64,000 nt of DNA, from assembly GCF_009914755.1 (NCBI RefSeq), contig NC_060928.1; one strand, written 5' to 3'. This DNA is from the human T2T-CHM13v2.0 reference genome, Homo sapiens. Position numbers and translations under genes: made by a program. Within the stretch, counting starts at the first letter, position 1. Each line of letters opens with the position of its first letter. Below the pieces are notes generated by a model that was not told the DNA's origin, did not search any database, and was given only the letters and a program-made list of their open reading frames with translations. Shown here in pieces: positions 40,706 through 63,811 of this stretch.

Positions 40706-41000
40706 GCATGGAAGAGGAGATGGTTCGTGTTACGCAGTGGCCGTTTAACTGGAGATCCAGATGTTTTGGAATATTACAAAAATGATCATGCCAAGAAGCC
40801 TATTCGTATTATTGATTTAAATTTATGTCAACAAGTAGATGCTGGATTGACATTTAACAAAAAAGAGTTTGAAAACAGCTACATTTTTGATATCAACACT
40901 ATTGACCGGATTTTCTACTTGGTAGCAGACAGCGAGGAGGAGATGAATAAGTGGGTTCGTTGTATTTGTGACATCTGTGGGTTTAATCCAACAGAAGAAG
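40706..41000 (+). CDS. GAB1: GAB1 coding exon 2 (most of the PH domain, aa ~25-122)
   Basis: Acceptor ttttgtttctag|GCATGG, donor GAAG|gtaagt; 295 nt. Translates [98 protein letters not shown], the Gab-family PH domain. Confidence 0.98.
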
Positions 41001-57771: not shown

Positions 57772-58701
57772 CTTCAGTTTCAACCCAGCTTTTTCTGTTC
57801 TATAATAACAAATTTTAAGAACAAATTTATTCATGTATGAGCATTTGCCTTTTTCTGCATTATTTATGGCCTTCTATTCCTAAACAGACTAACAGCATTT
57901 TTTCTGAGCCTTTAATATACTTGGTTATGTCAGTGACTACAGCGGGATTTTATTCTAGAATTTCACATGGTTTTCAAATTGCTTCATTCTGCACAATTTA
58001 GCTCTTTTCATATTTCTCTCAGAACATAGTTAAGGGAATAATAAATTACTTATTTACTTGCTGGACCTCTTTCCATGAAAATACTACAAAAATCCACTAA
58101 ATGGCAAATAAAGTTATGAGCTGAGGGAAGAGGTGATGCCTTAAAGAAGCTGTTTCCTTGAACATGAATAGACTTTATTTTCACCAGTCCCAGAATTAGA
58201 AGTATTTCTCTGTAGTCTGCTAAGAGGTAGAAAGAAAAGAACGATCATCGAAATAAACAGGGTAAAGAGCTGGCCCTGGTACTCACAGGACCACAGGCCT
58301 GGTAAATACTATGTAATTAAATGGGTCTCCTTGGAAGGTTGGGTTGGCTTAGGAAGCACTTCATTATCATGGAGTTTTAAAGTATCTTTCTCTTCTGCTA
58401 AGGTTGTAGAACAGCTTCCTTCTCATAGCCTCAAAACTGAAGACTGTTCAAGCAAAGGTTAGCCATGGCTTTTTTAGAGGATCTGGAATATATATAGAGT
58501 CCTACTCTTTAGATCTCTTTGACAAGAATAAAAAAATACTTCCTGTATAAAGGTCGCCATTTAGATAGTGTTTGTTTTAGCTGACATTGTCATGATTTAT
58601 TCTGTTTTTGTGTGTTGAAACAATTTGTCTCCAAAGTAGCTTTGTTTTTCCAAAAATTGTTTAACTGTGATAGACGTGATAGTTAAACTTTGGTGTTGCA
58701 G

Positions 58702-58927
58702 ATCCTGTGAAGCCACCTGGCAGCTCTTTACAAGCACCAGCTGATTTACCTTTAGCTATAAATACAGCACCACCATCCACCCAGGCAGATTCATCCTCTG
58801 CTACTCTACCTCCTCCATATCAGCTAATCAATGTTCCACCACACCTGGAAACTCTTGGCATTCAGGAGGATCCTCAAGACTACCTGTTGCTCATCAACTG
58901 TCAAAGCAAGAAGCCCGAACCCACCAG
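58702..58927 (+). CDS. GAB1: GAB1 coding exon 3
   Basis: Acceptor ggtgttgcag|ATCCT, donor ACCAG|gtaaat; 226 nt. The phase-1 start matches the exon 2 end (G+AT=Asp). Translates [13 protein letters not shown]...PPPYQLINV...[20 protein letters not shown]. Confidence 0.97.
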
Positions 58928-59298
58928 GTAAATTATATATGCCCATGTGAGAGAGAGACAGAGGCGTGTGTATGTGTGTACACACTGAGATTCTTACCTT
59001 TAAACTTTTTAAATTTCGATTTGCAGGCTTGAAAGAGACCATCTGTATAGGCATATGTTTCAGGCTTTATATTTCAGGTTTACATTCCCCTATTGATTTC
59101 CGATATTCAGGAGATTGTATCGAAGAGACACAATCTCTGCCATCTTTGGCAAAGAGCAGTTTTCCCTACAAGGCTCTTTTGGAAATCTGTCTCCTATTTT
59201 GTAGTCTTTGTTACAGACTCACAGTATTACTTGCTTAACAGATTTCACTGATTTATAAATGGTGATCTTGCTCCATTTCTTATGTGATTGTAAACCAG

Positions 59299-59379
59299 CC
59301 AAGGGTCATCTTTTGTTTCTGAAGAAGGAGAGGAATACCTTCTACTAGAAGATTTTGAAAGCAAAACGATTCCATTGCA
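59299..59379 (+). CDS. GAB1: GAB1 alternative 81-nt cassette exon (adds 27 aa) between exons 3 and 4
   Basis: aaaccag|CCAAGGG...CCATTGCA|gtgagt; 81 nt, phase 2 at both ends, no stop. Reads (S)QGSSFVSEEGEEYLLLEDFESKTIPL(Q). Strong donor, weak pyrimidine tract. Confidence 0.85.
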
Positions 59380-59565
59380 GTGAGTGTGTTGTGGTGGTTT
59401 TGGATCTGTGTGAGAAATTAATCATAAGGTAAAATCCCAATATAGCAAATTCCATGGAATATACAAATTGGATGTTAGTGAAATTTGATCAAATAAATAT
59501 ATTCCTAAAAATTACGAAACTTTTAGTCTTCATATCTAGCAATGAAGCAGAGCTTACCCTAAGCC

Positions 59566-59866
59566 TTTTTATTTATCTTTTTTTTTTTTTTTTTAGGAGA
59601 CAAGGGCTTGCTCTGTTGCCCATGGCTCACTCATAGCTCACTGTAACCCCAAACTCCTGGGCTCAAGTATTCCTTCTGCCTCAGCCCCCAGGTAGCTAGG
59701 ACTTCAGGTGCATGCCATCTGTATGCTGGCTGGCTAATTTTTTCTTTGTAGTGACGAGGTCTCACTATGTTGCCTAGGCTGATCTCAAACTCCTGGCCTC
59801 AAACAGTTCTCTCACCTCAGCCTCCTAAAGCACTGGGATTGCAGGTGTGAGCCACTGCGCTTGGCC
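59566..59866 (-). mobile_element. AluJ
   Basis: Diverged Alu reverse complement with T tract. Confidence 0.9.
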
Positions 59867-61399
59867 TCCCTTTACAAATTTTTAAGTAGAAGTATATGGA
59901 GTGCAGCACTTGACTGAAGGAATGAATCATCAAGCCTGTCCCAAATTCTTGGTTTCTCTACCATCTCCTTCCCTGCCCCCACACCCCTTTCCTCTTCTAA
60001 GCTATAAGGCATTTTAATTGGATCCTCCTTGTTACTTGATGTTGAATAGTTAGAAGAGTTAAGGCAATAAAGAGTCAAGAAGCAGTTGTTTTACTATTTT
60101 TAAAAGGAGCAGAAAAATGATGATTGAGAGGCCAATCTCTGCCATTAGTAGCTATGTGACAATTAGTGATACCAGTCAACTGAGTACATTTTATTTATGT
60201 ATTAATCAGCTAGGGTCTGGATAGAGAGTATATTTCTTTATAGACATGAAAAATGTTTTTTTAAACAAGATTATAATTAAGCATTATTTTATGACAGATT
60301 TTTTTTTAATGTGGAAAATGATTATTACTGGGCTAGGATCAGACAAAGCACTTGTTCAAAAATTTTAATGTAGAATATGTTAAGATTCACGAAATAGTTT
60401 CTGTGAACCATGCCCTGAGATGATGGAAATAGCTCATATTCATTCCAAAGCTGGATTTCTATGTATTTGTTGTAATGGGATTTTACCTGTAAGAGCAGAA
60501 AAAAATTTATAAATCAACATTTGTTAATATCAAATTCTAACTTGATTTTGCTTGTTTGCTGTGAGTATCTAAAATTATACACTGGCAACTTTGTTACCTA
60601 TGCTACTAACTAATATTTTATTTTACAAAAGTTTACAATTATTTTTCATTAGCAACTTTTTAGAAGCCAACAGCCAAGCGACAGTTCTCAGTATATTTTA
60701 TTTTTATATAGTGTATTTCATTGATTTCACTGGTATCACAGCTTTCCTCTTGCAGTACAACTTATGCTCAAAATCATCACCCAGATGTATTTTGCTATCT
60801 ATATTTTGCAAAAGTGACAGTTAAATAGCAAATATTTATGAGGTAACCACTATGTGCCCAATATTATGCTAGGTGCTATGAAGGTACAAACTATATAAGA
60901 TATAGTCTACTCAGATATAGTCACCTTTGGAGTTTACAAGTAAGAGTTGCTAAGAAGTGAAAACATGCAAGCATTAAATATTTAGAGATGAAGATAATAT
61001 ACCAGAGTTGCCTTGCAAACTCTTGTTTGTTCTGCAAGACTTTAGTTAGAATGTGCTCCTCTAGGAAGCATTCCTCTCAAACTCCCAAGTTAGCTTAAAT
61101 ATCTTTCTGGGTTTTTATAGCATCCTGGTTATGCCTTCATATCTTGTTTTATCGCAGTGTTAGAAACGATGTTTTTACTTACTCTTCACTAACTGTAAGC
61201 TAGTCAGAGCAAGGAGCTTTACTTATTACTCATAATTCCTCTAGCTTCTCTTAACTCTGCATTTGAATTAAATGAAGTACAAATTTTAGAATATGCATAG
61301 GTGCATTAGAAATTCCACAAAGGGACAGTGCAAGTGTTTTTAAGATGGAGAAAACAAAAGCTTCATAGGAAGAATGGAATGTGAACTACACCTAGTTGG

Positions 61400-63209: not shown

Positions 63210-63811
63210 AACGCATGCTGATTCTGCAAAATCCACCTCTTCTGAAACAGACTGCAATGATAACGTCCCTTCTCATAAAAATCCTGCTTCCTCCCAGAGC
63301 AAACATGGAATGAATGGCTTTTTTCAGCAGCAAATGATATACGACTCTCCACCTTCACGTGCCCCATCTGCTTCAGTTGACTCCAGCCTTTATAACCTGC
63401 CCAGGAGTTATTCCCATGATGTTTTACCAAAGGTGTCTCCATCAAGTACTGAAGCAGATGGAGAACTCTATGTTTTTAATACCCCATCTGGGACATCGAG
63501 TGTAGAGACTCAAATGAGGCATGTATCTATTAGTTATGACATTCCTCCAACACCTGGTAATACTTATCAGATTCCACGAACATTTCCAGAAGGAACCTTG
63601 GGACAGACATCAAAGCTAGACACTATTCCAGATATTCCTCCACCTCGGCCACCGAAACCACATCCAGCTCATGACCGATCTCCTGTGGAAACGTGTAGTA
63701 TCCCACGCACCGCCTCAGACACTGACAGTAGTTACTGTATCCCTACAGCAGGGATGTCGCCTTCACGTAGTAATACCATTTCCACTGTGGATTTAAACAA
63801 ATTGCGAAAAG
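63210..63811 (+). CDS. GAB1: GAB1 coding exon 4 (YxxP Crk-type sites, Grb2 SH3-binding PPPRPPKP)
   Basis: Acceptor tttatttag|AACG, donor AAAG|gtcagc; 602 nt. The phase-2 start fits exon 3 (AG+A=Arg). Contains YDSP, YNLP, YDIP, YQIP, YCIP and PPPRPPKP. Confidence 0.97.

What the first reader, a model, noticed from the sequence alone, without database searches (positions are those of the whole stretch)
59299..59379. Hidden 81-nt in-frame cassette exon between GAB1 exons 3 and 4
Seen: cag|...|gtgagt boundaries, a length divisible by 3, phase 2 matching the exon 3/4 junction, and an open frame adding 27 aa (SQGSSFVSEEGEEYLLLEDFESKTIPLQ across the junctions). It is too short for the ORF track. Knowledge (recalled, unverified): a striated-muscle-specific high-molecular-weight Gab1 isoform with a 27-aa extra exon at this position, acting in neuregulin-1/ErbB signalling, has been reported. 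It is therefore probably known but often missing from canonical models.
Basis: partly seen in the sequence, partly recalled or inferred. Interest (0 to 1): 0.8.

Follow-up and report, generated by a model that had tools for sequence, protein, structure and literature searches.

The report
Known muscle-specific GAB1 cassette exon
This 81-base stretch is the already published, already annotated extra exon that heart and embryonic skeletal muscle splice into the GAB1 signalling adaptor; it is ancient and repeats a conserved tyrosine motif encoded just before it.

Summary
Window 59299-59379 (+) is an 81-nt stretch with cag| and |gtgagt boundaries. It is open in the frame set by the GAB1 exon 3/4 junction and replaces R198 with S + 26 residues + Q.

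Yasui et al. 2016 (PMC5115770) describe an 81-bp, 27-aa extra exon between exons 3 and 4 in striated-muscle 'high-MW' Gab1. The human peptide they used for their antiserum equals this translation. Their mouse primers and rat siRNAs map onto the exon. RefSeq lists the exon in non-selected transcripts (hub table). 721-aa isoforms carrying it are in protein databases, including a human TrEMBL entry. It is therefore known, not hidden.

Two points appear to go beyond what I found in print:
- The cassette, in the same junction context, occurs in sharks, rays, a chimaera, ray-finned fishes, a marsupial and placentals. The paper claimed conservation in mammals only.
- Its core repeats the conserved Tyr183 helix motif at the end of exon 3. 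Profile-profile P is 7e-09, against 0.67 for a control. Muscle Gab1 therefore carries that module twice.

What the second copy does, and which factor drives inclusion, remain inferred.

The parts
59299..59379 (+). 81-nt frame-preserving cassette exon of GAB1 (between exons 3 and 4). It encodes residues 198-224 of the 721-aa isoform. The Tyr211 codon is at 59336-59338.
   Evidence: Published peptide. Rodent primers and siRNAs map at 59299-59319, 59321-59345, 59328-59352 and 59354-59373. Residue numbering from P0014.
59276..59298 (+). 3' splice site region: a pyrimidine tract interrupted by purines (TTTCTTATGTGATTGTAAAC) followed by CAG.
   Evidence: It ranks 28 of 347 AG sites in the intron by a crude score whose weights are recalled, so it is a middling site.
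59380..59385 (+). 5' splice site GCA|GTGAGT. The intron side is consensus; the exon side is not (the last exon base is A).
   Evidence: It ranks 14 of 243 GT sites by a recalled position-weight score.
59384..59413 (+). GU-rich run directly behind the donor, with GTGTG at 59384 and 59408. Candidate intronic splicing enhancer (inferred).
   Evidence: 2 GTGTG in the first 100 nt downstream against 0.2 expected from the intron's own density (8 in 4,282 nt). No GCATG within 300 nt on either side.
58860..58910 (+). Tail of constitutive exon 3 encoding [17 protein letters not shown], the Tyr183 helix motif (Tyr codon 58881-58883). This is the first copy of the motif that the cassette repeats.
   Evidence: The helix at P180-I187 is from PMC13435814.
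58702..58927 (+). GAB1 exon 3 (upstream constitutive exon; donor CAG|GTAAAT).
   Evidence: Hub table.
63210..63811 (+). GAB1 exon 4 (downstream constitutive exon; acceptor tttag|A).
   Evidence: Hub table.

Best explanation
This is the known alternative exon of GAB1 that produces the striated-muscle 'high-MW' Gab1 isoform. When it is spliced in between exons 3 and 4, R198 is replaced by S + 26 residues + Q, a net gain of 27 aa. The insert is strongly acidic (7 acidic and 1 basic residue out of 27), which plausibly explains a gel shift far larger than 3 kDa. Its core, EEYLLLEDFESK, is a second copy of the conserved Gab motif [12 protein letters not shown] that ends exon 3. That first copy was recently shown by NMR to be a preformed helix around Tyr183. 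Muscle Gab1 therefore carries two acidic Y-x-x-L modules 28 residues apart, just behind the PH domain. My proposed mechanism is inferred: the second module adds a further docking element, either a phosphotyrosine site with Leu at +3 or a helical peptide motif, which changes partner choice or avidity downstream of NRG-1/ErbB4 towards PI3K/AKT. Shown in print, in mouse and rat: heart and embryonic-muscle restriction, the mobility shift from the cDNA alone, NRG-1-induced phosphorylation of the high-MW form, and lower AKT activation after isoform-specific knockdown. Inferred here: inclusion is regulated through middling splice sites together with a purine-rich exonic element (GAAGAA at 59321) and a GU-rich run directly after the donor. 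That run is the kind of element bound by muscle GU-binding splicing factors such as RBM24 or CELF (factor preferences recalled).
For: Identity with the published exon:
- The peptide matches.
- The mouse primers match with 0 of 21 and 1 of 20 mismatches, and the rat siRNAs with 3 of 25 and 2 of 25, against 0.00-0.01 matches expected in shuffles.
- The two rat siRNAs overlap and together give 3 distinct differences (59335, 59341, 59347). All three are third codon positions and synonymous.

Presence in databases and other species:
- 70 of the 120 listed mammalian proteins carry the cassette.
- 107 of 120 listed ray-finned-fish proteins carry both motif copies. Skip isoforms read ...PEPN-R-AHG and inclusion isoforms ...PEPN-S...Q-AHG, the same R to S...Q junction as in human.
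- 27 of 43 further proteins carry both copies, covering 15 cartilaginous-fish species, a reedfish and a marsupial.
- The human cassette is identical at 26 of 27 positions to Dromiciops, 22 of 27 to Acipenser and 19 of 27 to Callorhinchus.
- Across 81 cassette-bearing sequences, the only invariant residues outside the PH domain are P159, Y183, L186, Y211, L214 and D239.

The repeat:
- Cassette against the 75 aa before it: 1 of 2000 shuffles reach the score in human, and 0 of 2000 in each of Amia, Acipenser, Scophthalmus and Chanodichthys.
- Profile-profile comparison gives Prob 95.8 and P 7e-09 over 21 columns. The control against the upstream linker gives Prob 0.07 and P 0.67.
- The Tyr183 helix, its conservation and its reported phosphorylation are from PMC13435814.
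Against: - The paper itself reports that overexpressed low-MW Gab1 enhanced NRG-1-induced AKT activation 'almost similarly' (S2 Fig, cited in section 24). A distinct function for the insert is therefore not shown.
- No data show that Tyr211 is phosphorylated or that the cassette is helical. My AlphaFold2 run was uninformative (mean pLDDT 50.6).
- A sequence-based predictor in PMC3637500 gave the first copy, Tyr183, a low phosphorylation score of 0.078.
- No bird, reptile or amphibian protein appeared in my listings, so continuity across tetrapods is untested.
- The splice-factor assignment rests on two pentamers in one species, and their conservation could not be checked.
- Adult mouse skeletal muscle barely expresses the exon (section 21), so 'striated-muscle specific' is mostly heart after birth.
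Confidence: 0.95

Rival explanations
1. Chance pattern: an AG...GT stretch that merely happens to be open and divisible by three, and is not a used exon.
For: Such patterns are common: 166 candidates in this one intron. The splice sites are only middling (donor rank 14 of 243, acceptor 28 of 347).
Against: Exact match to the published human peptide and to the rodent reagents. Presence in annotated isoforms from sharks to human. The 3 distinct human-rat differences are all synonymous third-position changes. It ranks 1 of 166 by the crude combined site score.
Confidence: 0.01
2. Real exon, but the insert is functionally neutral. It acts as a tissue-specific spacer that alters gel mobility and does not alter signalling.
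For: Overexpressed low-MW and high-MW Gab1 enhanced AKT activation about equally (paper's discussion). The N-terminal half of the cassette varies in sequence and length in teleosts, with motif spacing from 21 to 40 residues.
Against: The cassette has been retained with an unchanged junction across jawed vertebrates. Y211 and L214 are invariant in 81 of 81 sequences and E215, E218 and S219 are nearly invariant. The cassette core is about as constrained as the first copy. Isoform-specific knockdown lowered AKT activation (abstract).
Confidence: 0.12
3. The likeness between the cassette and the exon-3 tail is convergence on a short linear motif, with both sequences selected for the same partner, rather than descent from a partial duplication of exon 3.
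For: The shared core is only about 11 residues. The exons differ greatly in length (81 against 226 nt). No DNA-level similarity remains to be tested. Position +6 toggles between C and F among lineages.
Against: In fishes the alignment covers nearly the whole cassette and both copies end at their exon's 3' boundary in the same phase. The cassette lies only 371 nt behind exon 3. Profile-profile P is 7e-09.
Confidence: 0.3

Closest known systems
Striated-muscle high-MW Gab1 isoform extra exon (Yasui et al. 2016, PLoS One 11:e0166710, PMC5115770)
   Same: Same gene, same position between exons 3 and 4, same length (81 bp, 27 aa) and the same human peptide. It is this exon.
   Different: Nothing differs. 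The paper states conservation in mammals only and 'no homology to already-known functional domains' (section 20). Here the cassette is traced back to cartilaginous fishes and matched to the Tyr183 motif of Gab1 itself.
Tyr183 helix epitope of Gab1 (Dietrich et al. 2026, Biopolymers 117:e70120, PMC13435814)
   Same: The cassette core shares Y, L+1, L+3, C/F+6, E+7, S+8 and K+9 and the acidic residues before the Tyr with that epitope.
   Different: The epitope is constitutive, being the tail of exon 3, and is shown by NMR to be partly helical. The cassette copy is alternative, more acidic and structurally unstudied. That paper does not mention an isoform or exon (0 occurrences of either word).
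Tandem exon duplication giving alternative exons
   Same: An adjacent, sequence-related coding segment 371 nt downstream, ending in the same phase.
   Different: It is not mutually exclusive with its relative, because exon 3 is always used. It corresponds only to the last ~27 codons of the 226-nt exon 3.
GAB1 isoform a (the other annotated GAB1 insert; recalled, not examined here)
   Same: Another in-frame alternative insertion in the disordered tail of GAB1.
   Different: From recall it is a 30-aa insert much further downstream. Several 751-756-aa database isoforms seen are of a length that would fit both inserts, but this was not analysed.

Membership tests
Published GAB1 exon 3-4 extra exon (high-MW Gab1) | Lies between exons 3 and 4; 81 bp; frame-preserving; 27 aa | tested here: met
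   paper section 20
Published GAB1 exon 3-4 extra exon (high-MW Gab1) | Encodes the published human peptide QGSSFVSEEGEEYLLLEDFESKTIPLQ | tested here: met
   against paper section 6: identical
Published GAB1 exon 3-4 extra exon (high-MW Gab1) | Published rodent exon-specific primers and siRNAs map to it | tested here: met
   0, 1, 3 and 2 mismatches, each with a single hit in the window
Published GAB1 exon 3-4 extra exon (high-MW Gab1) | Inclusion restricted to heart and embryonic skeletal muscle | not testable with these tools
   No expression data are available here. Shown for mouse in the paper (section 21).
Published GAB1 exon 3-4 extra exon (high-MW Gab1) | Isoform is tyrosine-phosphorylated after NRG-1 and supports AKT activation | not testable with these tools
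   Paper abstract and discussion only
Frame-preserving cassette exon | AG/GT boundaries, length 3n, and both skip and inclusion products on record | tested here: met
   70 inclusion and 50 non-inclusion entries among the 120 listed. Skip and inclusion isoforms also occur in fishes.
Gab Tyr183-type motif ([DE]-Y-L-[LW]-L-x-x-[CF]-E-S-K) | Sequence pattern with invariant Y and L+3 | tested here: met
   The motif is present in 27 of 150 family representatives, and twice in 5 of them.
Gab Tyr183-type motif ([DE]-Y-L-[LW]-L-x-x-[CF]-E-S-K) | Forms a local alpha-helix | tested here: inconclusive
   AlphaFold2 on 81 sequences gave mean pLDDT 50.6, a 3-residue helix at 214-216 and none at 180-187, where NMR finds one
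Tandem exon duplication | Duplicate exons of like length used in a mutually exclusive way | tested here: not met
   81 against 226 nt. Exon 3 is present in all isoforms examined.
ITAM (considered because of two YxxL) | Two YxxL/I spaced by 6-12 residues (definition recalled) | tested here: not met
   Y183 and Y211 are 28 residues apart, which leaves 24 residues between the two YxxL motifs

The most novel reading that the evidence does not exclude
The muscle cassette is an ancient partial duplicate of the exon-3 tail, dating at least to the jawed-vertebrate ancestor. On this reading, alternative splicing switches Gab1 between one and two copies of the enigmatic Tyr183 helix/YxxL module, and the second copy gives heart Gab1 bivalent binding to a still unknown partner of that module. 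That would link two so-far separate observations in print, the 2016 muscle isoform and the 2026 Tyr183 helix. It would also offer the two-copy isoform as a natural tool for finding the partner.
Probability: 0.55. Interest if true: 0.4.

Novelty: already known. Interest (0 to 1): 0.2.

Why it matters
As a finding it confirms existing knowledge: the exon is published, annotated and present in protein databases. The useful residue is modest. First, the exon is far older than stated in print, with jawed-vertebrate rather than only mammalian conservation, which argues that the isoform has a function of its own. Second, it duplicates the conserved Tyr183 module, whose function is unknown. This gives a concrete hypothesis of one copy against two copies, and concrete mutants (Y211F, L214A), for work on NRG-1/ErbB4 signalling in cardiomyocytes.

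Tried and rejected
- Searching with the cassette peptide alone failed because the 29-aa query is under the tool's 40-aa minimum. I used the exon-3 peptide instead and looked for the cassette in the returned proteins.
- AlphaFold2 on an 81-row alignment of the N-terminal 239 residues gave mean pLDDT 50.6 and pTM 0.32. Even the PH domain was poorly modelled, so the run says nothing about docking or helicity of either motif. No fold search or complex job was run on it.
- Searches of the own genome for a paralogous cassette, for example in other GAB genes, found only the exon itself. A 29-aa query is weak evidence here.
- Rfam search of 58500-60500 gave 0 matches.
- RBFOX (GCATG) and QKI (ACTAAY) motifs are absent within 300 nt. 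MBNL- and PTB-type motifs are near their expected density.
- Literature searches for a splicing regulator of this exon or for the motif repeat found nothing specific: Gab1+Rbm24+alternative splicing, 'high-MW Gab1', Gab1+cassette exon+cardiomyocyte+splicing, Gab1+muscle-specific+exon+splicing and Gab1+YLLL. One review mentions SRSF1-promoted exclusion of an unspecified GAB1 exon in breast cancer. Supplementary tables of splicing studies were not searched and could list this exon.
- Atlas look-ups for two divergent two-motif proteins gave only 'chordate Gab family'.
- A family tree was only a quick tree, with the careful search unfinished and a midpoint root. It places those proteins outside the named Gab1 clade without resolving where.
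- An ITAM reading was rejected on spacing.

Full report
**1. Observation**

The sequence is as described. The intron ends ...aaccag at 59298, the 81-nt exon runs 59299-59379, and gtgagt follows at 59380. Exon 3 ends ...CCC ACC AG|gtaaat and exon 4 begins tttag|A ACG CAT, so the exon 3/4 junction splits a codon after its second base.

Reading 59300-59377 gives QGSSFVSEEGEEYLLLEDFESKTIPL. The split codons are AG|C = S and CA|A = Q. Inclusion therefore replaces R198 by S + 26 residues + Q, a net gain of 27 residues. The coding frame carries 0 stops both with and without the cassette, while the other two frames carry 10-22. The frame is closed directly outside the exon by TAA at 59291-93 and by the TGA inside the donor at 59381-83.

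**2. Is it more than chance?**

The pattern alone is not.
- Intron 3 (4,282 nt) contains 243 GT and 347 AG sites, and 166 AG...GT candidates of 27-300 nt that are multiples of three and stop-free in this frame.
- Neighbouring frames on both strands are open for up to 58-95 codons.
- The splice sites are middling. By a crude score whose weights I recalled, the donor ranks 14 of 243 and the acceptor 28 of 347, although the pair ranks 1 of 166.

The exon is established by outside evidence, given in section 3.

**3. Identity**

A full-text search found Yasui et al. 2016 (PMC5115770). I read its abstract and sections 6, 8, 11, 12, 16, 20, 21 and 24. It reports:
- an 81-bp extra exon between exons 3 and 4 encoding 27 residues;
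- expression in mouse heart and embryonic skeletal muscle, and barely any in adult skeletal muscle;
- a 120-kDa against a 100-kDa band, reproduced from the cloned cDNA;
- tyrosine phosphorylation of the high-MW form after NRG-1;
- reduced AKT activation after isoform-specific siRNA.

The match to the window is direct.
- The antiserum peptide, 'encoded by the human Gab1 3-4 extra exon', equals the window translation.
- The mouse exon primers map at 59299-59319 (0 mismatches) and 59354-59373 (1 mismatch, Thr to Ala). The rat siRNAs map at 59328-59352 and 59321-59345 (3 and 2 mismatches). Each has one hit in 64 kb, with 0.00-0.01 expected.
- The three distinct human-rat differences (59335, 59341, 59347) are all third codon positions and synonymous. 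This is a small but clean codon-type signal.

The hub's RefSeq table lists 59299-59379 among exons of non-selected transcripts. A protein search with the exon-3 peptide returned 574 hits. Of the 120 listed, all placental mammals, 70 carry the cassette, including a 721-aa human TrEMBL entry. A 2023 GAB1 review also cites the two isoforms. The exon is known. It is 'hidden' only with respect to the selected transcript.

**4. Depth of conservation**

The paper speaks of conservation in mammals. Starting from a nameless-library representative and then named searches, I found more.
- Of 120 listed ray-finned-fish Gab1 entries, 107 carry both the exon-3 tail motif and the cassette, 10 carry one motif and 3 carry none by my pattern.
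- Skip isoforms read ...KKPEPN-R-AHG and inclusion isoforms ...KKPEPN-S...Q-AHG, the same R to S...Q junction signature as in human.
- A third search added 43 proteins, of which 27 carry both copies. These include 15 cartilaginous-fish species (sharks, rays and the chimaera Callorhinchus), the reedfish Erpetoichthys and the marsupial Dromiciops. Of the remaining 16 entries, 15 carry one motif and one carries none.
- The human cassette is identical at 26 of 27 positions to Dromiciops, 22 to Acipenser, 19 to Amia, 19 to Callorhinchus, 14 to Erpetoichthys and 10 to a cyprinid.
- In teleosts the N-terminal half of the cassette varies in sequence and length, with motif spacing from 21 to 40 residues, while the C-terminal core is constant.

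No bird, reptile or amphibian entries were listed. The tool selects candidates by shared words and lists only 120, so this is no evidence of absence.

**5. The cassette repeats the end of exon 3**

In the window, VSEEGEEYLLLEDFESK aligns to [17 protein letters not shown] of exon 3 with score 38. That score is reached by 1 of 5000 shuffles against exon 3 and by 11 of 5000 against exons 2-4.

In fishes the likeness is stronger and spans nearly the whole cassette, up to the 3' end of both exons. No shuffle out of 2000 reaches the observed score in Amia, Acipenser, Scophthalmus or Chanodichthys, and 1 of 2000 does in human.

In an alignment of 81 cassette-bearing sequences, the only invariant residues outside the PH domain are P159, Y183, L186, Y211, L214 and D239. 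Column by column both copies read [ED]-Y-L-[LW]-L-x-[NED]-[CF]-E-S-K.

A profile-profile comparison of the two blocks gives Prob 95.8 and P 7e-09 over 21 columns. The control against the upstream linker gives Prob 0.07 and P 0.67.

The motif is family-wide. 27 of 150 Gab-family representatives carry it, and 5 carry it twice, 28-39 residues apart.

Position +6 of the cassette is Phe in cartilaginous fishes, sturgeons and mammals, and Cys in reedfish, gar, bowfin and teleosts. By parsimony Phe is likelier to be ancestral, so the Cys of many fishes is not by itself proof of descent from the first copy.

**6. What is known about the first copy**

Dietrich et al. 2026 (PMC13435814) is relevant here. 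I read the abstract and sections 4, 13 and 17, and ran a term search. It shows by NMR a local helix at P180-I187 centred on Tyr183. It calls the epitope highly conserved, repeatedly seen phosphorylated in mass-spectrometry studies (citing PhosphoSitePlus), a possible SH2 target, and functionally uncharacterised. The words isoform and exon do not occur in it. Yasui et al. wrote that the 27 residues show no homology to known functional domains. Within the searched library I found no paper connecting the two.

**7. How it most likely works**

Shown in print, for rodents: tissue-restricted inclusion, a protein of altered mobility, NRG-1-dependent phosphorylation, and a contribution to AKT activation.

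Inferred here:
- (a) The oversized gel shift follows from the insert's charge (7 acidic and 1 basic residue of 27), since acidic segments are known to retard SDS-PAGE migration.
- (b) The insert adds a second acidic Y-x-x-L module 28 residues after the first. This could give either a further phosphotyrosine docking site with Leu at +3 or a second helical peptide motif, and so bivalent engagement of whatever binds the Tyr183 module.
- (c) Regulated inclusion rests on a purine-interrupted pyrimidine tract and on a donor with consensus intron positions but a non-consensus exon side (GCA|GTGAGT). It also rests on a GAAGAA element in the exon, and on two GTGTG elements in the first 35 nt of the downstream intron, where 0.2 are expected per 100 nt. 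The link of GU-rich elements to RBM24 or CELF is recalled and untested. No GCATG lies within 300 nt.

Against a distinct function: the authors saw similar AKT enhancement with overexpressed low-MW Gab1. My structure prediction was uninformative.

**8. Other checks**

- The exon's DNA (181-nt query) and peptide (29 aa) match only themselves in the window's own genome.
- There is no Rfam family in 58500-60500.
- Two pairs of divergent, unnamed Gab-family proteins fall outside the named Gab1 clade in a quick, unfinished, midpoint-rooted tree. Three of these four proteins carry two motif copies. Atlas look-ups place them only among chordate Gab proteins. Whether the second copy predates jawed vertebrates or arose more than once stays open.

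**9. Verdict**

The feature is already known and annotated, so interest in the finding as given is low. The added points are conservation back to cartilaginous fishes and the cassette being a second copy of the Tyr183 module. They are modest, testable, and to my searches unpublished.

Noticed in passing
Proteins P0128, P0129, P0133 (two motif copies) and P0132 (one): Divergent, unnamed chordate Gab-family representatives (45-51% identical to human GAB1). Three of them carry two Tyr183-type motifs 28-39 residues apart, yet they fall outside the named Gab1 clade in a quick tree. The second copy may therefore be older than jawed vertebrates or may have arisen more than once.
   Followed up: partly
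Fish Gab1 proteins (for example P0322 and P0340 spacing 24; P0304 and P0305 spacing 39-40; P0375 spacing 21): In teleosts the N-terminal half of the cassette varies in length. It is short in salmonids and has a proline-rich expansion in herring and anchovy relatives. The EYLLLEECESK core stays fixed.
   Followed up: partly
window 59384-59413 (+): GU-rich run with two GTGTG elements directly after the cassette's donor site. Its conservation in other species could not be checked with the collections at hand.
   Followed up: partly
window 40706-41000 (+), GAB1 exon 2: The PH-domain stretch reads LCQQVDAG in the window and in the human and chimpanzee proteins. The majority of the 81 aligned vertebrate sequences have E at the first of the two Q positions (consensus LCEQVDAG).
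   Followed up: no
window 58818-58829 (+), exon 3: A PPPY element (Tyr162) about 20 residues before the Tyr183 motif is also highly conserved: P159 is invariant, and P160, P161 and Y162 are at 90% or more. PMC13435814 notes it as a possible WW-domain site.
   Followed up: no
Mammalian and shark entries (lengths 751-790 aa): Many predicted isoforms are about 30 or more residues longer than the 721-aa form, so the cassette is combined with other alternative inserts further downstream. These were not analysed.
   Followed up: no
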